Made by a program: the position numbers and the translations under genes. A stretch of DNA of 42,114 bases, from the IMG/VR virus record IMGVR_UViG_2585427728_000007; one strand, given 5' to 3'. This document shows positions 30,213 through 34,842 of this stretch, one piece after another (within the stretch, counting starts at the first letter, position 1; each line of letters begins with the position of its first letter). The notes under the pieces are model-generated. The model searched no databases. It was not told the DNA's origin and saw only the letters and a list, made by a program, of their open reading frames with translations. Source of the DNA: a virus (Duplodnaviria; Heunggongvirae; Uroviricota; Caudoviricetes).

Positions 30213-31077
30213 GAACTTTCAGGTAGGTATTATCGTTAAGCAGGAAATCAAATCCCTTTTTGTGCCAGACGGTTCCGCGTTGATGGTTTGGGCGCTCTTC
30301 GAACATCCATCGGCAATTTTCGCCTACGTAGCTCAAATAATTTCTCCAGTCCTGCATCGTGAAACCATGCCCATCAAGCTGGCGGGTTATCACTCCGGCT
30401 TTGCGCCAGAACGTTCGGATCTGGTTTTTACGCTTGTCATTCAGTGCGCGGATTCTTGGCGCTTCAGGAAGGATTTCGTGGTAAGCATCGACAACATCCT
30501 GACAGCTAACGGAAGGTTTTTTCTTGTCAGACTTTTTGTCTGCTGTGGCACTCTCTAATACGTCAGTATTAGAGATATTATTTATATTATTGTTTATGGA
30601 CAACCGTTGGACAACCGTTGGACAATCTCCGCTGAGAGCCGCGCCATTACTGGTGTTTGCGTTGGACAACCGTTGGACAACCGTTGGACAATTTTTTGCC
30701 TGAAAATCGTCATATTTAACGATTGTAAACAGGCTAAATTTCTTCCCCATCGAGCAAATATTAAGCATCCCTTTCGACTCAAAAGTCCGTAATAAGCTCC
30801 GAACTTTGTTGTCGGGGATGAATGTTTCTCTGACCAGCGACGGGCGTCCAGTTATCATCTGACCGCGATCAACAGTTATCGGCCCGATATCCGTATTGAC
30901 GACAGTAGATTCGTGATTAGCCTTGAGGATTAAGTGAAGCCAAAGATGTACTGCCTGAGAGTCCTTATAGAGCCTGCTGTCCATAAACTGGCGGTGTATA
31001 GAGACATACCCCATACTGGATGCCTCCTGATGTTGTACAGGGTTATGCCTGTAATCAGCTAACTTAACGACGCCCAT
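30187..31077 (-). CDS. Replication initiator (lambda O-like), with ori iterons inside the gene
   Basis: 296 aa; position after cII and before the helicase; coding sequence contains six 11 bp iterons that encode the repeated peptide CPTVVQRLSN; the true start may be the internal Met (MGYVSIHRQF...). Confidence 0.7.
   Translation of the reverse strand: MGVVKLADYRHNPVQHQEASSMGYVSIHRQFMDSRLYKDSQAVHLWLHLILKANHESTVVNTDIGPITVDRGQMITGRPSLVRETFIPDNKVRSLLRTFESKGMLNICSMGKKFSLFTIVKYDDFQAKNCPTVVQRLSNANTSNGAALSGDCPTVVQRLSINNNINNISNTDVLESATADKKSDKKKPSVSCQDVVDAYHEILPEAPRIRALNDKRKNQIRTFWRKAGVITRQLDGHGFTMQDWRNYLSYVGENCRWMFEERPNHQRGTVWHKKGFDFLLNDNTYLKVREGEHDDR
30597..30695. repeat. Replication origin iterons: 6 copies of TGGACAACCGT-like 11 bp unit in two clusters
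   Basis: Copies begin at 30597, 30608, 30619 and 30663, 30674, 30685; the clusters are 44 bp (4 x 11) apart, so all copies are in phase; flanked on the low-coordinate side by an AT-rich stretch (30560-30596). Confidence 0.8.
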
Positions 31078-31225
31078 GTTTCACTCCTGCTTTGGCTAGT
31101 CTGTAAACACCAACAAGGCGCTCTGCGAACGCCCTGTTATTTGCTGCGGCTACCACTAATCCCTCAGGTGAATCAGGGTGTCGAATCTCTTCTTTTTCCT
31201 GGTATTTCTTACGACGTTTTGTCAT
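31064..31225 (-). CDS. Hypothetical small basic protein between cII and O (not in ORF track)
   Basis: Manual translation MTKRRKKYQEKEEIRHPDSPEGLVVAAANNRAFAERLVGVYRLAKAGVKHGRR (53 aa); AGGAG six nt upstream of the ATG; stop overlaps the O start. Confidence 0.35.
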   Translation of the reverse strand: MTKRRKKYQEKEEIRHPDSPEGLVVAAANNRAFAERLVGVYRLAKAGVKHGRR

Positions 31226-31257
31226 AATTACTCCTGTGGATTGATCCAGTAATTACC

Positions 31258-31554
31258 TCAGAATTGCATATCAATTTGCTCAGAATCCTCGGTGGCAGCC
31301 GGGGATTTTTTCTTTGCGATTCCATCCAATGCATACTTAAAAGCCCTGCTAATCGGACTGATGTCTGATGCCATTCCGAAAGCACACAAGACCGAAGCAA
31401 TAAATCTCCAGTCCGTTCTGCTTATCTTCGATTCATGACAGCCAATCATCTTTGCCAGACCGCGCTGGGTAAGCGTTGACAGGTTGATGAGTAAATCTGT
31501 TTCTGCGCGATCAACGTCGCGCTGTGATAGTTTGCTGTAACTTGTTTGTTCCAT
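31258..31554 (-). CDS. cII: CII-like transcriptional activator
   Basis: 98 aa; HTH region LTQRGLAKMIGCHESKISR and C-terminus KKKSPAATEDSEQIDMQF resemble lambda CII (C-terminus ...KKRPAATERSEQIQMEF as recalled). Confidence 0.8.
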   Translation of the reverse strand: MEQTSYSKLSQRDVDRAETDLLINLSTLTQRGLAKMIGCHESKISRTDWRFIASVLCAFGMASDISPISRAFKYALDGIAKKKSPAATEDSEQIDMQF

Positions 31555-31638
31555 TTCTTATGATTCCAATAGTGAATATTTAGCTGAAAGGTATGCGTGG
31601 AAACGCATATGACCTTAGTTGGTCAGATATCTTGGGGC

Positions 31639-31684
31639 TCGCTTTGTCAGCGACGTAGGACGAATGTCCATTGTGAAAAGAGCG
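31639..31684 (-). promoter_or_regulatory. nutR candidate: boxA (CGCTCTTTT) and boxB hairpin (UCGCU-GACAA-AGCGA)
   Basis: Minus-strand boxA-like CGCTCTTTT at 31684..31676, eight nt after the cro stop; boxB-like hairpin at 31653..31639 with a 5 bp stem and GACAA loop. The 22 nt boxA-boxB spacer is longer than in lambda. Confidence 0.55.
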
Positions 31685-31691
31685 GTGTTAC

Positions 31692-31925
31692 TTATGCTGC
31701 TGATGCTCTACGCGATACGAACACCAGGTTTTCCTTTTTCACGGGTTTATAGGCCGTGAAATTACGAGTAGCTTCTTCGATTGCATTCGCTTTATCAGGG
31801 GAAGCTCTTCGAAATCCATATGCAATCTGGTCAAGATAGCCAACTGAAGTTTTCGCTAATGCGGCGAGTCGCTTCCATTCCTCACTAGAAGCCTCTTTTC
31901 GCCAGCGTAGTAGTTCATTACTCAT
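31692..31925 (-). CDS. cro: Cro-like repressor (HTH protein divergent from cI)
   Basis: 77 aa; HTH segment KTSVGYLDQIAYGFRRASPDKANAIEEA; divergently transcribed from cI across the operator region; GGAGG Shine-Dalgarno. Confidence 0.65.
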   Translation of the reverse strand: MSNELLRWRKEASSEEWKRLAALAKTSVGYLDQIAYGFRRASPDKANAIEEATRNFTAYKPVKKENLVFVSRRASAA

Positions 31926-31936
31926 TAGTGCCTCCG

Positions 31937-32020
31937 TTTATCATACAGAATAACTTTACCATTTTGATAAATCAACCGCAATGTAAATTTATCATATTGC
32001 GTATTTATCCATTTGCTAAA
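31937..32020. promoter_or_regulatory. Right operator region (oR) with pR / pRM; repeated TTTATC-N5-GATAAA sites
   Basis: 17 bp sites TTTACCATTTTGATAAA (31955-31971) and TTTATCCATTTGCTAAA (32004-32020), plus half-sites at 31937 and 31988; candidate pR on the minus strand has -35 TTGATT (31975..31970) and -10 TATTCT (31952..31947) bracketing the first site. Confidence 0.55.
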
Positions 32021-32038
32021 TAGAGGGAAAATTGTGAG

Positions 32039-32743
32039 ATGGAAAACAAAGATATTCGCAAATCGAATCTGGCGTTTTTGCTAGATGAGCATAAAAAAAT
32101 CGCGGGTAACACTAATGCAAGCTTTGCCGATAAGCTTGGGGTTAGCCCTTCTCAACTCACGCAAGTCTCCGGTGAAAAAAGCACTCGAAACATAGGGGAT
32201 AAACTAGCAAGAAAATTTGAAGCCGCACTTGGGTTACCTAATGGGTGGCTTGATTTGGTACATGATGTAACACCAATTGCATCATGCTCAGATTCTTTAA
32301 CTTTTGTCGGTCAGGTAAGAAAAGGGTTAGTGCGCGTGGTTGGTGAGGCAATTCTTGGTGTTGATGGTGCCATCGAGATGACCGAAGAGCGCGATGGGTG
32401 GCTCAAAATTTATAGCGATGATCCAGATGCCTTTGGCCTTCGTGTGAAAGGAGACAGCATGTGGCCTAGAATAAAATCAGGAGAATATGTACTCATTGAG
32501 CCTAACACCAAAGTATTCCCGGGTGATGAGGTGTTTGTCAGAACCGTTGAAGGACACAACATGATTAAGGTTCTTGGCTATGACAGAGATGGAGAATACC
32601 AATTTACAAGCATCAACCAAGACCACAGGCCAATAACGTTGCCTTATCATCAAGTAGCAAAGGTGGAGTATGTGGCTGGTATTCTGAAGCAATCTCGCCA
32701 TCTGGATGACATCGAGGCAAGGGAGTGGCTGAAAAGTTCGTGA
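32039..32743 (+). CDS. cI: CI-type repressor (N-terminal HTH, C-terminal S24 LexA-like peptidase domain)
   Basis: 234 aa; HTH around FADKLGVSPSQLTQV; C-terminal domain with the Ser (GDSMWP) and Lys (MIKVLG) of the autocleavage dyad; divergent from cro. Confidence 0.9.
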   Translation: MENKDIRKSNLAFLLDEHKKIAGNTNASFADKLGVSPSQLTQVSGEKSTRNIGDKLARKFEAALGLPNGWLDLVHDVTPIASCSDSLTFVGQVRKGLVRVVGEAILGVDGAIEMTEERDGWLKIYSDDPDAFGLRVKGDSMWPRIKSGEYVLIEPNTKVFPGDEVFVRTVEGHNMIKVLGYDRDGEYQFTSINQDHRPITLPYHQVAKVEYVAGILKQSRHLDDIEAREWLKSS

Positions 32744-32812
32744 CTTCATCGTCCCATAGCTGATAGCCAGTGGCCTGAAGAGACGTTTGGATGATTTTAA
32801 GGAAATATCTTC

Positions 32813-33253
32813 ATGAGAGAAGAAAAAATAATAACAATCTACACAACGGCGGTAAAACCCGGGCTGGCAATCACTCCTTTTATGACACCAGATCCTATAA
32901 TAGTGTCGGAAGAATACCCTTGTTCCGGCTCATTTTACCTAACTGCAATAATGTACTTCGAGCACGAAAAAAAATACACTACCGAACTTGATGTCGTATT
33001 CAATGGAGAATCGGTTTTACCTGATATCTCTAGCAATCAAGAGCAACTGCAAACATTTATGTTTTCTCCTGTCAATGAAAAATATGTTGTGGTTGGCACA
33101 TATCTTTTCGTTAAAAACATCAAACTTATAGAAACAGGAACATATGACATAATTTATCGCATCTTTGAAGACATTGATGGTAATCTTAGCGAAGTTATTG
33201 ATGAAAAAAAATGCGCTCTTATTTCAACCACCCCGAACAGAGATAAGGAATGA
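32813..33253 (+). CDS. Hypothetical protein, first gene of the cI-adjacent accessory cassette
   Basis: 146 aa; AT-rich coding sequence; ATG preceded by AAGGA; no terminator between the cI stop and this gene; no recognisable domain. Confidence 0.6.
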   Translation: MREEKIITIYTTAVKPGLAITPFMTPDPIIVSEEYPCSGSFYLTAIMYFEHEKKYTTELDVVFNGESVLPDISSNQEQLQTFMFSPVNEKYVVVGTYLFVKNIKLIETGTYDIIYRIFEDIDGNLSEVIDEKKCALISTTPNRDKE

Positions 33254-33606
33254 AACGACATCTGTACGCTGTGCCTCTTGACAGGAGTAAAGTTGATAAT
33301 TTTCCACATAACCACCATAATGATGAGACATATGGTGGTGGTAACGGTGGAGGTGGTGACATGTTACAGCGCATAAAAATTCTTGAAGATAAAGTCGCAA
33401 CCATGGCGACCGACATCGCTGTAATTAAGTCTAACTATGCAACATCTGCCAATGTAGAATCTGTTAAAACAGACATAGCTAATGCAAAAGCAGAACTTCA
33501 CAGCGCAATGAGACTCCAAGCCATGGCTATTATTGGTTCAGTTCTTGCAGCCGTTGGAACTGGTGTTGGGTTAATAATAAAAATGATGCCATCACTACCT
33601 CACTAA
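33250..33606 (+). CDS. Hypothetical membrane-anchored coiled-coil protein, second gene of the cassette
   Basis: 118 aa; ATGA overlap with the upstream gene; Gly-rich stretch YGGGNGGGGD, predicted coiled coil (LQRIKILEDKVATMATDIAVIKSN...VKTDIANAKAELHSAMRLQ) and a single C-terminal hydrophobic helix AMAIIGSVLAAVGTGVGLIIKMM. Confidence 0.6.
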   Translation: MKRHLYAVPLDRSKVDNFPHNHHNDETYGGGNGGGGDMLQRIKILEDKVATMATDIAVIKSNYATSANVESVKTDIANAKAELHSAMRLQAMAIIGSVLAAVGTGVGLIIKMMPSLPH

Positions 33607-33616
33607 GAATCTACAC

Positions 33617-33644
33617 AACCCGGCCTCAGCGCCGGGTTTTCTTT
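33617..33644 (+). terminator. Rho-independent terminator ending the cI-cassette operon
   Basis: AACCCGGC-CTCAGC-GCCGGGTT followed by TTCTTT, beginning 11 nt after the stop of the 118 aa gene. Confidence 0.65.
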
Positions 33645-33822
33645 GCCTCTCGATCCCCCACCTAAAAAACATAACTCATTGTATTTATTGAAAAACTGAT
33701 TGATACAACTTGCTAAACCACGCAATCCAGATCTCCCTCAAATCTCTTTATTTATCCTGTCGAATTCCTACAACAAAATAAAACACCATAAGAATCAATA
33801 CGATATTTGAAAATCAAAAGAA

Positions 33823-33866
33823 TTTATCATTTTGCTATTGCCATTAATTTATCATTCCGATAAAGT
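33823..33866 (+). promoter_or_regulatory. Left operator region (oL) with pL candidate
   Basis: 17 bp site TTTATCATTCCGATAAA (33848-33864) with perfectly inverted outer hexamers, plus a weaker site at 33823-33839, same motif as at oR; candidate pL -35 TTGCCA (33838-33843), 17 bp spacer, -10 TAAAGT (33861-33866), overlapped by the operator. Confidence 0.5.
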
Positions 33867-33934
33867 TTGCCCATCAGCAGGACGCACTACTCACCAGGGC
33901 GGTGAATATACAACGATTCGAATATGAATCTACG

Positions 33935-33949
33935 GCGCTGACAAAGCGC
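33935..33949 (+). promoter_or_regulatory. nutL boxB hairpin (GCGCU-GACAA-AGCGC)
   Basis: GCGCTGACAAAGCGC: 5 bp stem with GACAA pentaloop, the P22-type boxB as recalled; lies between pL and the N-like gene. No clear boxA identified. Confidence 0.6.
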
Positions 33950-34210
33950 AATAACCAAAGTGAACTTTGGGGTGTGGTGAAGCCAGCTAGTCACTGGCAA
34001 GTGCTTACCTACTGTTGAGCGGTGAAGCGCTCCCAACGCTAGCAATAGCGTGGACGAGATGGGGAGCCGCGGGCGATAAGGCCGCCATAACGCGCACGTT
34101 GTCGCATGGAAAAATCACTGGGGTGCCGGTTATACCCCTCCGAATGAGACTCAACAAGCTGGAGCTAGACTACCAGCCACCACACCACCAAAGTTCATCA
34201 GGAGGTCTAT

Positions 34211-34594
34211 ATGACACGCAGAACTCAGTTCAAAGGCAATTCACGTTCTCGTCGTCGTGAGCGTTTAAAGGCAAAGGCATTAGCTAACGGCGTACTGGCC
34301 CGCGAAGAAGCAATAAGTTCAGAAGTATTACACCGCCCTACTCTAAGCAGAGCGCAGATTCAGGCTAAAGGTACTCACGAAACGCCTGAGCGCATAGAAG
34401 ACGCTAAGCCAATTAAGTTCATGGCACAGGACGTGATCTGGCAACAGAAAGAATACAGACGCAATCTGGAGCGAGTGGCCATTGTGTACGCGAATGAGTT
34501 TGGACATAAGCAACCAGAAACTGGTGTATGTCTTCCAAACGTAGCCATTTACGCGGCAGGCTACCGGAAATCAAAACAACTGACAGCAAGATGA
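34211..34594 (+). CDS. N: N-like transcription antiterminator (P22 gp24-type)
   Basis: 127 aa; N-terminal arginine-rich motif GNSRSRRRERLKAKALA; C-terminus LPNVAIYAAGYRKSKQLTAR resembles P22 N as recalled; first gene downstream of pL/nutL; GGAGG Shine-Dalgarno. Confidence 0.65.
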   Translation: MTRRTQFKGNSRSRRRERLKAKALANGVLAREEAISSEVLHRPTLSRAQIQAKGTHETPERIEDAKPIKFMAQDVIWQQKEYRRNLERVAIVYANEFGHKQPETGVCLPNVAIYAAGYRKSKQLTAR

Positions 34595-34653
34595 CTTGTG
34601 TTGGTCGCCAGAAAATGAAATTAGGCAGTAAGCTACTGTATGAGGGGTGAGAT

Positions 34654-34842
34654 ATGCATAAATGTCAGTTCTGTGGATACATGTTTGAATCAAATGAAAT
34701 GCAACGTATTTCGTTAAACCTTATCGGTAGGCCATACAACATTTGCCTAGGATGTAGCGAGAAATACAAAAACAAAGACATGTGGGACGACAATAAAAAC
34801 GATATCGACTGGAATAAAGTGCCATGTATTGATGATAGTTAA
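34654..34842 (+). CDS. Hypothetical small zinc-ribbon protein (early-left accessory gene)
   Basis: 62 aa with two CxxC pairs (C5/C8 and C31/C34); AT-rich; GAGGGGTGAG before the ATG. Confidence 0.5.
   Translation: MHKCQFCGYMFESNEMQRISLNLIGRPYNICLGCSEKYKNKDMWDDNKNDIDWNKVPCIDDS

What the first reader, a model, noticed from the sequence alone, without database searches (positions are those of the whole stretch)
31592..31684. nutR region downstream of cro: boxA, boxB with GACAA loop, and a possible tR1 hairpin
Eight nt after the cro stop the minus strand reads CGCTCTTTT (boxA-like), followed 22 nt later by a UCGCU-GACAA-AGCGA hairpin matching the nutL boxB loop, then a 7 bp-stem hairpin (31592-31609) before cII that could be tR1. 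The match of boxB loops at both nut sites supports a single N specificity. The boxA-boxB spacer is longer than in lambda.
Basis: partly seen in the sequence, partly recalled or inferred. Interest (0 to 1): 0.4.

Follow-up and report, generated by a model that had tools for sequence, protein, structure and literature searches.

The report
Known H-19B-type nutR antitermination site
This is the ordinary rightward N-utilisation site (nutR) and the start of the Rho-dependent terminator tR1 of a lambdoid phage, nearly identical to the experimentally studied site of Shiga-toxin phage H-19B, so it is real but already known.

Summary
These are boxA-like CGCUCUUUU (31684-31676), a 22-nt spacer, boxB UCGCU-GACAA-AGCGA (31653-31639), and a 7-bp hairpin (31609-31592) upstream of cII.

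The exact boxB core occurs only twice in the window. The second copy lies downstream of PL and upstream of N, which is nutL. The N protein is 97% identical to phage H-19B N.

The cro-cII intergenic region is about 93% identical to H-19B nutR/tR1, a published Rho-dependent terminator and N site. Published H-19B probes for boxA, spacer, boxB and the post-boxB region map here with 1, 0, 1 and 2 mismatches. Identical boxA and boxB are annotated in HK106. The same hairpin is annotated as a putative Rho-dependent terminator in VT2-Sakai.

The downstream hairpin is not an intrinsic terminator because it has no U-tract. It is the positional counterpart of the lambda tR1 hairpin and keeps its pairing through compensatory changes.

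Verdict: confirmed, interpretation supported, already known, low interest.

The parts
31676..31684 (-). boxA-like element CGCUCUUUU. It matches 8 of 9 positions of the P22 boxA CGCUCUUUA read. H-19B has CGCUAUUUU at this place.
   Evidence: The identical 9-mer is annotated as 'nutR, boxA' in HK106, EF120461.
31654..31675 (-). The 22-nt boxA-boxB spacer. It consists of CACAAU, the hairpin GGAC-AUUC-GUCC (31669-31658), and the linker UACG (31657-31654).
   Evidence: Folding. The published H-19B 'nutR spacer' probe RS663 matches with 0 mismatches. Within the nutR family the hairpin is invariant across the IMG/VR contigs examined, except for one variant in which an A-U pair becomes G.U.
31639..31653 (-). 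boxB: a 5-bp stem UCGCU/AGCGA closing a GACAA pentaloop. This is the binding site for the arginine-rich motif of N.
   Evidence: It is annotated as 'nutR, boxB' in HK106.
31610..31638 (-). A stretch downstream of boxB with C in excess over G (GCCCCAAGAUAUCUGACCAACUAAGGUCA). It sits where lambda has rutB.
   Evidence: One search shows C exceeding G across the untranslated intergenic region (37 C against 22 G). Lambda's rutA and rutB flank boxB.
31592..31609 (-). A 7-bp hairpin UAUGCGU-UUCC-ACGCAUA at the tR1 position. It is probably a pause or boundary element at the start of the Rho release zone. It is not an intrinsic terminator.
   Evidence: z = -5.5. One search finds no T-run. VT2-Sakai annotates it as 'putative rho dependent terminator for pR transcript'. 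A compensatory U-A to C-G change occurs in 9 of 49 distinct sequences. Lambda and P22 have counterparts.
31555..31591 (-). The inferred remainder of the tR1 release zone, running up to the cII start. On the opposite strand it also carries the likely PRE -10 hexamer TATGAT (31559-31564, plus strand).
   Evidence: By analogy with lambda, where the terminator zone is marked from the hairpin loop to the cII ATG (PMC8940904). The PRE position follows the HK106 annotation. This part is inferred.
31692..31925 (-). cro-like gene of 77 aa, transcribed from PR upstream of nutR.
   Evidence: phrog_35, transcriptional repressor. The homologous ORF is annotated as cro in H-19B.
31258..31554 (-). cII gene. 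It is the first gene whose full expression requires read-through of tR1.
   Evidence: PF05269 Phage_CII, E = 5.6e-32.
31991..32019 (-). PR-like promoter: TTAGCA, 17-nt spacing, TATGAT.
   Evidence: The operator annotations of homologous phages agree.
33915..33949 (+). nutL. It consists of the spacer hairpin GAUUC-GAAUAU-GAAUC (33915-33930), the UACG linker (33931-33934), and boxB GCGCU-GACAA-AGCGC (33935-33949). No consensus boxA lies upstream.
   Evidence: z = -4.0. It is identical to H-19B nutL. The boxB is identical to P22 nutL boxB.
33838..33866 (+). PL-like promoter: TTGCCA, 17-nt spacing, TAAAGT.
34211..34594 (+). N antiterminator of 127 aa. Its arginine-rich motif is GNSRSRRRERLKAK.
   Evidence: 97% identical to H-19B N. 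(PF25694, E = 3e-15). The H-19B motif 12-RSRRRER-18 is described in PMC3526286.

Best explanation
This is the nutR site of an H-19B/HK97-type lambdoid early-right operon, overlapping the Rho loading site of tR1 and followed by the tR1 release zone.

Proposed mechanism:
1. Transcripts from PR run through cro into an untranslated intergenic RNA in which C exceeds G.
2. Without N, Rho loads on the spacer and flanking segments around boxB. It then releases RNA polymerase in a zone that begins at the 31609-31592 hairpin and runs to the cII start.
3. With N, the arginine-rich motif of N binds the GACAA pentaloop of boxB. That loop folds like a GNRA tetraloop with the C looped out, as in the P22 N-boxB structure.
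4. NusA binds the spacer. The N-NusA(-NusG) complex stays tethered to the polymerase, blocks Rho at the site, and makes the polymerase termination-resistant further downstream.
5. The boxA-like element can recruit NusB-NusE but is probably of secondary importance in this nut class.

Steps shown experimentally, for the about 93%-identical H-19B site, are Rho-dependent termination, N-dependent read-through, and footprints of N/NusA and Rho on the spacer and boxB. Applying these to this phage is an inference from homology.
For: Position and context: the site lies between cro and cII, downstream of a PR-like promoter.

Cognate partners: the N protein is 97% identical to H-19B N. The nutL boxB carries the same GACAA loop.

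Homology to the characterised site:
- The intergenic region aligns with H-19B with few differences and scores 93.2% identity by blastn.
[quoted passage not shown] They carry 1, 0, 1 and 2 mismatches.

Literature on H-19B:
- nutR/tR1 is a Rho-dependent terminator whose rut and nut sites overlap.
- The nutR site contains two hairpins.
- Rho and NusA both bind the spacer, and N protects boxB.

Public annotations of the same sequence: nutR boxA and boxB in HK106, nutR plus a putative Rho-dependent terminator in VT2-Sakai, nutR in 24B, and NutR plus tR in g341c.

Cross-phage covariation, in loci where both sites were in the fetched DNA:
- About 34 loci had GACAA at nutR, GACAA at nutL and an H-19B-type N.
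- 42 loci had GAAA at both nutR and nutL. In VT2-Sakai this type goes with a different N protein.
- No mixed cases were found.

Other support:
- C exceeds G in the intergenic RNA, 37 against 22.
- The hairpin is conserved with compensatory change.
- Lambda has a counterpart at the start of its marked terminator zone.
Against: Nothing here tests function in this particular phage.

boxA alone is not statistically distinctive. It also varies widely or is degenerate in relatives, for example CCACTTCC in Salmonella phages, so its contribution is uncertain.

The spacer hairpin and boxB are so conserved that they give almost no covariation evidence. Helix 1 never varies.

The exact release points of tR1 in H-19B-type phages were not found in the texts I could read. 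The link between the hairpin and the termination zone therefore rests on the lambda analogy and on database annotation.
Confidence: 0.92

Rival explanations
1. The 31609-31592 hairpin is a self-sufficient intrinsic (Rho-independent) terminator, which would be tR1 itself.
For: It is a stable, statistically unusual hairpin (z = -5.5) at the right place. Some records label it a 'terminator'.
Against: The hairpin is followed by CCUUUCAGCUAAAU, not a U-run. The terminator scan lists no terminator-like site at 31592-31609. VT2-Sakai labels it Rho-dependent. H-19B tR1 is experimentally Rho-dependent. The stem has only 3 G-C pairs.
Confidence: 0.03
2. The conserved hairpin serves mainly another purpose. 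It could be a 5' stem-loop of the leftward PRE transcript, whose likely start at about 31571 puts the complementary hairpin at roughly +20 to +40. Alternatively it could be an element that affects cII translation or mRNA stability. In either case its coincidence with tR1 would be secondary.
For: The PRE -10 and the CII-binding site map just downstream, according to the HK106 annotation. An inverted repeat forms a hairpin on both strands. Conservation with compensatory change shows that the structure is selected but does not show on which strand or for what purpose.
Against: The texts I read give no evidence for such a role. In lambda the homologous hairpin lies at the start of the mapped Rho termination zone, where NusA-enhanced pausing occurs. 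The two roles are not mutually exclusive.
Confidence: 0.12
3. The boxA-like motif is a dispensable vestige. Antitermination here would run on the spacer hairpin, boxB, N and NusA, without NusB or NusE.
For: [quoted passage not shown] I recall from that paper, without having read it here, that BOXA, NusB and S10 were dispensable. Published footprinting found no N or Rho protection over boxA. The nutL of this window and of H-19B lacks a consensus boxA. boxA is degenerate in Salmonella relatives, while the spacer hairpin and boxB are invariant.
Against: This window's boxA, CGCUCUUUU, is closer to consensus than H-19B's CGCUAUUUU. Both alleles are common among relatives. The Sakai-type relatives keep a good boxA at both nutR and nutL.
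Confidence: 0.4
4. The motifs are chance resemblances in an ordinary intergenic region.
For: The boxA 9-mer pattern is not enriched.
Against: There are two perfect 13-mer boxB cores, at exactly the two expected places. The region is near-identical to a characterised site. The block is conserved in more than 120 viral contigs.
Confidence: 0.01

Closest known systems
Phage H-19B nutR/tR1 (Neely and Friedman 1998 and 2000; used by the Sen laboratory, PMC3526286 and PMC1950744)
   Same: The architecture and almost all of the sequence are the same: boxA, a 22-nt spacer with the GGAC-AUUC-GUCC hairpin, UACG, boxB UCGCU-GACAA-AGCGA, and the downstream hairpin. The cI/cro immunity region is of the same type, the N protein is 97% identical, and nutL is identical.
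   Different: There is one base difference in boxA (C here, A in H-19B), which makes this boxA closer to consensus. A few substitutions lie downstream of boxB. The N leader between nutL and N carries a different, longer insert. The rest of the genome is Sf6/IME10-like, not an Stx phage.
HK97 / HK106 / mEp234 nutR (the GenBank record EF120461 annotates boxA and boxB)
   Same: boxA CGCTCTTTT and boxB TCGCTGACAAAGCGA are identical, with the same 22-nt spacer. The N protein is 97.6% identical.
   Different: The cro and cI alleles (immunity) differ. A few substitutions lie downstream of boxB.
Phage P22 nutL and nutR with gp24 (N peptide-boxB NMR structure, PDB 1A4T)
   Same: The boxB pentaloop is GACAA. 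The window's nutL boxB, GCGCUGACAAAGCGC, is identical to P22 nutL boxB. The arginine-rich motifs are related (GNAKTRRHERRRK in P22, GNSRSRRRERLKAK here). The C-terminal 30 aa are 67% identical. A hairpin lies at the tR1 position upstream of c1.
   Different: P22 spacers are short (9-11 nt) and unstructured, and a consensus boxA is present at both sites. The N proteins are otherwise not alignable by BLAST.
Phage lambda nutR-tR1 (rutA-boxB-rutB)
   Same: The order is the same: cro, boxA, boxB, a hairpin, then cII. The Rho loading site overlaps nut, and a hairpin sits at the start of the termination zone.
   Different: Lambda boxB is GCCCU-GAAAA-AGGGC, which has a different N specificity. Its spacer is 9 nt and has no hairpin. 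Its boxA is CGCUCUUA.
VT2-Sakai / 933W-type nut sites
   Same: The spacer hairpin, the UACG linker, the boxB stem and the tR1 hairpin at nutR are the same.
   Different: The boxB loop is a GAAA tetraloop at both nutR and nutL. The N protein is a different 90-aa protein with the motif GTAASRRRARRA, about 39% identical. boxA is CGCTCTTTG.

Membership tests
Lambdoid N-utilisation (nut) site | Located in the early PR transcript, just after cro and before cII | tested here: met
   The cro stop is at 31692, the elements span 31684-31639, and the cII ATG is at 31554. A PR-like promoter lies at 32019-31991.
Lambdoid N-utilisation (nut) site | A boxB hairpin with a 5-bp stem and a GNRA-like pentaloop | tested here: met
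   UCGCU-GACAA-AGCGA is predicted to fold as such. The GACAA pentaloop is the P22-type GNRA-like loop with a looped-out C (PMC12550061).
Lambdoid N-utilisation (nut) site | A second site (nutL) with the same boxB loop, downstream of PL and upstream of N | tested here: met
   GCGCU-GACAA-AGCGC lies at 33935-49, about 60 nt after the predicted PL and 260 nt before the N ATG.
Lambdoid N-utilisation (nut) site | A cognate N protein with an N-terminal arginine-rich motif encoded in the same genome | tested here: met
   PF25694 with E = 3e-15. The protein is 97% identical to H-19B N.
Lambdoid N-utilisation (nut) site | A boxA element (consensus about CGCUCUUUA) 5' of boxB | tested here: met
   CGCUCUUUU matches 8 of 9 positions. 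The motif is not significant on its own.
Lambdoid N-utilisation (nut) site | N-dependent antitermination in cis | not testable with these tools
   It has been shown for the near-identical H-19B site (PMC3526286).
H-19B/HK97-type nut (extended, structured spacer) | A boxA-boxB spacer of about 22 nt containing a dyad-symmetry hairpin | tested here: met
   GGAC-AUUC-GUCC lies at 31669-31658. [quoted passage not shown]
H-19B/HK97-type nut (extended, structured spacer) | Sequence identity to the characterised H-19B nutR | tested here: met
   Identity is 93.2% over 146 nt. The published probes match with 0-2 mismatches.
H-19B/HK97-type nut (extended, structured spacer) | Reduced requirement for host factors (independence from NusB and S10) | not testable with these tools
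   I could read only the title of Neely and Friedman 2000. The details are from my memory.
Lambda tR1-type Rho-dependent terminator | An untranslated RNA with C in excess over G (rut) flanking boxB | tested here: met
   The intergenic 137 nt contain 37 C and 22 G, with C exceeding G in all 30-nt windows from 31710 to 31561.
Lambda tR1-type Rho-dependent terminator | A hairpin at the start of the release zone, upstream of cII, with no U-tract | tested here: met
.
Lambda tR1-type Rho-dependent terminator | Dependence of termination on Rho | not testable with these tools
   It has been shown for H-19B nutR/tR1 (PMC1950744 and PMC3526286).
Intrinsic (Rho-independent) terminator | A G+C-rich stem followed by a U-run | tested here: not met
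   The scan does not report it, and the tail is CCUUUCAG.
Rfam RNA families | A match to a curated covariance model | tested here: not met
   There was no hit over 31000-34700 except a sub-threshold, unrelated sRNA. No nut or boxB match was returned.

The most novel reading that the evidence does not exclude
The nearly invariant module of spacer hairpin, UACG linker and boxB could be a specific composite recognition element for NusA and/or Rho. Such an element would explain boxA- and NusB-independent antitermination in this class. This phage, whose boxA is consensus-like rather than H-19B's CGCUAUUUU, could then be a natural hybrid that regains NusB/NusE input. The module is seen with three different hairpin sequences: at nutR, at the window's and H-19B's nutL, and at Sakai nutL. 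Neither the structure nor the role of the spacer hairpin appears settled in the literature I could read.
Probability: 0.12. Interest if true: 0.35.

Novelty: already known. Interest (0 to 1): 0.1.

Why it matters
The finding matters little beyond correct annotation. It places this mosaic P22/Sf6-like phage in the H-19B/HK97 N-specificity group, defined by GACAA boxB loops at both nut sites. It also predicts that cII, replication-gene and late-gene expression depend on an H-19B-type N acting at this site against Rho.

The comparative data assembled here give a tidy illustration of known principles rather than a discovery. They show perfect co-variation of nutR loop, nutL loop and N type. They also show an invariant block of spacer hairpin, UACG and boxB next to a variable boxA.

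Tried and rejected
- **Rfam scan.** The scan of 31000-34700 at a permissive threshold gave only a sub-threshold, unrelated sRNA hit, and no nut-related match was returned.
- **Intrinsic terminator reading.** I rejected this for the downstream hairpin, which has no T-run.
- **PDB search with N.** It gave only insignificant L25 hits, with E of about 0.4-0.6. No N-peptide entry was returned.
- **BLASTP of N against P22 gp24.** It aligned only the C-terminal 30 aa. The similarity of the arginine-rich motifs is therefore a by-eye observation.
- **Neely and Friedman 2000.** The paper is not held in the library. Statements about boxA, NusB and S10 dispensability rest on its title and on my memory.
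- **IMG/VR scans for variants.** I searched for nutR variants with a different base before UACG. The result was 0 hits for the two nutR patterns and 1 hit for the nutL pattern. This shows conservation but yields no covariation for the spacer hairpin.
- **Third predicted hairpin.** A hairpin at 31620-31611 and its flanks (UGACC...GGUCA) is not conserved. Most relatives have GGCCA, which gives an A.C mismatch, and the Salmonella relatives lack it. I did not count it as part of the element.
- **Linkage of two substitutions.** I considered whether the boxA C/A allele and the downstream GAGC/GAGU difference covary as an alternative helix. All four combinations occur, so I rejected this.

Full report
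**Observation**

On the minus strand the cro-like ORF (31925-31692) ends in TAA at 31694-31692. The features that follow are:

- Seven nucleotides, then CGCTCTTTT at 31684-31676.
- A 22-nt spacer at 31675-31654.
- TCGCT-GACAA-AGCGA at 31653-31639.
- Further on, TATGCGT-TTCC-ACGCATA at 31609-31592.
- The ATG of a Phage_CII gene at 31554 (PF05269, E = 5.6e-32).

The boxB core CGCTGACAAAGCG has exactly two perfect matches in the 42-kb window. One is here. The other is at 33936-33948 on the plus strand. The second copy lies about 60 nt downstream of a PL-like promoter and about 260 nt upstream of an N gene.

The boxA 9-mer pattern alone is not enriched, with 3 matches found against 1.8 expected.

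Folding predicts three things:
- the boxB hairpin;
- a further hairpin inside the spacer, GGAC-AUUC-GUCC at 31669-31658;
- the downstream 7-bp hairpin, at -7.1 kcal/mol with z = -5.5.

**Context**

The window is a lambdoid immunity region in reverse orientation.

- cI is at 32039-32743 on the plus strand (Peptidase_S24).
- cro and cII are on the minus strand.
- N is at 34211-34594 on the plus strand. It matches PF25694 'N_peptide' with E = 3e-15.

The N protein is 97% identical to N of Shiga-toxin phage H-19B. It carries the arginine-rich motif RSRRRER at residues 12-18, as described for H-19B N (PMC3526286). It is 97.6% identical to HK97 and mEp234 N.

H-19B has the same cI, cro and cII gene sizes. 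The rest of the window resembles Sf6, IME10 and mEp234, which are P22-like mosaics.

**Identity of the element**

The cro-cII intergenic region aligns with H-19B (AF034975) with only a handful of differences and scores 93.2% identity by blastn.

The supplement of PMC3526286 lists four oligonucleotides as antisense to parts of H-19B nutR. They map in the window as follows:

| Probe target | Window coordinates | Mismatches |
|---|---|---|
| boxA | 31673-31696 | 1 |
| spacer | 31654-31675 | 0 |
| boxB | 31634-31657 | 1 |
| region immediately after boxB | 31613-31638 | 2 |

That paper and PMC1950744 establish several points for H-19B nutR/tR1:
- It is a Rho-dependent terminator whose rut site overlaps nut.
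- The nutR RNA has two hairpins.
- Rho (with a footprint of about 22 nt) and NusA both bind the spacer.
- N plus NusA/NusG protect the spacer and boxB, but not boxA.
- Mutations in the arginine-rich motif of N abolish read-through.

Public records already annotate the same sequence:
- HK106 annotates 'nutR, boxA' (CGCTCTTTT) and 'nutR, boxB' (TCGCTGACAAAGCGA), both identical to the window.
- VT2-Sakai annotates nutR. It also annotates the TATGCGTTTCCACGCATACCTTTCAA segment as 'putative rho dependent terminator for pR transcript'.
- Phages 24B and g341c annotate nutR and tR.

The 22-nt spacer compares with 9 nt in lambda and in P22 nutR, and 11 nt in P22 nutL. It is not merely longer. It has the structure CACAAU, then a hairpin, then UACG.

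nutL of this window has the same layout with a different hairpin: GAUUC-GAAUAU-GAAUC, then UACG, then boxB. Sakai-type nutL has yet another hairpin, GUCGA-CUC-UCGAC, again followed by UACG and boxB.

The evidence for conservation of the nutR spacer hairpin is:
- More than 120 IMG/VR contigs matched a pattern that fixes the spacer hairpin and the first five bases of boxB. In all 49 distinct sequences aligned from them, the UACGUC segment left free in that pattern was also invariant.
- Scans for any other base before UACG found none at nutR.
- A scan anchored only on boxB found a single hairpin variant, GGGC..GUCC, which turns an A-U pair into G.U and keeps the pairing.

By contrast, boxA varies among relatives:
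- CGCTCTTTT, as here;
- CGCTATTTT, as in H-19B;
- CGCTCTTTG, as in the Sakai type;
- the degenerate CCACTTCC in Salmonella phages.

The nutL of this window and of H-19B has no consensus boxA at all.

[quoted passage not shown] I could not read the paper. My recollection that BOXA, NusB and S10 are dispensable for H-19B N is therefore memory, not a tool result.

**N specificity**

In related contigs where both sites fell within the fetched DNA, the loop types always agreed.

- About 34 loci had GACAA at nutR, GCGCU-GACAA-AGCGC at nutL, and an H-19B-type N.
- 42 loci had GAAA at both nutR and nutL. In VT2-Sakai this type goes with a different, 90-aa N whose motif is GTAASRRRARRA.
- No mixed cases were seen.

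The GACAA loop is the P22 type. In the P22 N-peptide-boxB structure (PDB 1A4T), the C is looped out of a GNRA-like fold and contacts the peptide (PMC12550061). The window's nutL boxB is identical to P22 nutL boxB. The arginine-rich motifs resemble each other by eye: GNAKTRRHERRRK in P22 and GNSRSRRRERLKAK here. BLAST, however, aligns only the C-terminal 30 residues, at 67% identity. Phage 21 boxB is a different CUAACC hexaloop.

**The tR1 hairpin**

It is not an intrinsic terminator. The tail is CCUUUCAG, and the scan does not list it.

The structure is conserved in several forms:
- Among 49 distinct relatives, the innermost pair is U-A in 39 and C-G in 9, a compensatory change.
- Loop sequences differ between relatives, and one variant gives a G.U pair.
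- A third clade has a different hairpin at the same place, CGCAUC-AACC-GAUGCG.
- P22 has GCGCAU-CAACGA-AUGCGC.
- Lambda has GUGUAUGCA-UUUAUU-UGCAUACA.

In a lambda tR1 template, the 'rho_terminator' sequence is marked from the hairpin loop to the cII ATG. NusA is reported to increase pausing in the terminator regions (PMC8940904).

The intergenic RNA has 37 C against 22 G, whereas G is generally at least as frequent as C within cro. This is consistent with a rut region flanking boxB, as annotated in lambda.

The best reading is that the hairpin marks, and probably promotes pausing at, the start of the Rho release zone. An added or alternative role cannot be excluded. The hairpin would also lie near the 5' end of the leftward PRE transcript, given the likely PRE -10 TATGAT at 31559-31564 on the plus strand (by the HK106 annotation).

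**Verdict**

The element is the already characterised H-19B/HK97-type nutR followed by tR1.

The only local peculiarity is a single-base boxA allele, C instead of H-19B's A. It is closer to consensus and is common among relatives.

Novelty: already known. Interest: low.

Noticed in passing
window 33959-33980 pairing with 34175-34197 (plus strand), bracketing about 190 nt between nutL and the N ribosome-binding site: The N leader is predicted to form a long-range helix (GUGAACUUUGGGGUGUGGUG with CACCACACCACCAAAGUUCAU) just upstream of the N Shine-Dalgarno sequence. The fold is -103 kcal/mol with z = -4.3. H-19B keeps the outer arms (AACUUUGG with CCAAAGUU) but has a shorter, unrelated insert. 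The arrangement recalls the RNase III-sensitive N-leader structure of lambda; that comparison is from my memory.
   Followed up: partly
window 31676-31684 (minus strand): boxA is CGCUCUUUU here and CGCUAUUUU in H-19B. Both alleles are common in IMG/VR relatives, at roughly 26 and 31 contigs. They occur in all combinations with the nearby GAGC/GAGU polymorphism.
   Followed up: partly
IMG/VR loci such as L034 and L085 (Salmonella-type relatives): A third boxB variant, TCGCTGACAAGGCGA, has a GACAA loop with an A-to-G change in the 3' stem. The loop-closing pair therefore becomes U.G. The N type that goes with it was not determined.
   Followed up: no
window 31282-31309 (plus strand): A terminator-like hairpin with a T-run lies antisense to the 3' end of cII. 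This is the position of the oop RNA terminator in lambda and P22; P22 annotates one.
   Followed up: no
window 32813-33253 and 33250-33606 (plus strand), with a terminator at 33617-33638: Two overlapping ORFs of 146 and 118 aa lie between cI and PL, where lambda has rexAB. They are followed by an intrinsic terminator. The region is AT-rich, at 35-41% GC. There are no Pfam or PADLOC hits. The second ORF hits only PHROGs of unknown function (phrog_6324, E = 1e-11). They may be lysogen-expressed accessory genes.
   Followed up: partly
window 31532-31545 (inside the 5' end of cII) and 31559-31564 (plus strand): A likely CII-binding repeat, TTGC-N6-TTGT, and a PRE -10 hexamer TATGAT lie here. The hexamer is closer to consensus than the TAAGAT of HK106 and H-19B.
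   Followed up: no
L057 (IMGVR_UViG_2545824717_000011): One relative has the nutR block intact, but its sequence diverges completely 17 nt after boxB. The tR1 hairpin and cII leader are lost, which suggests a deletion or recombination junction right after nutR.
   Followed up: no
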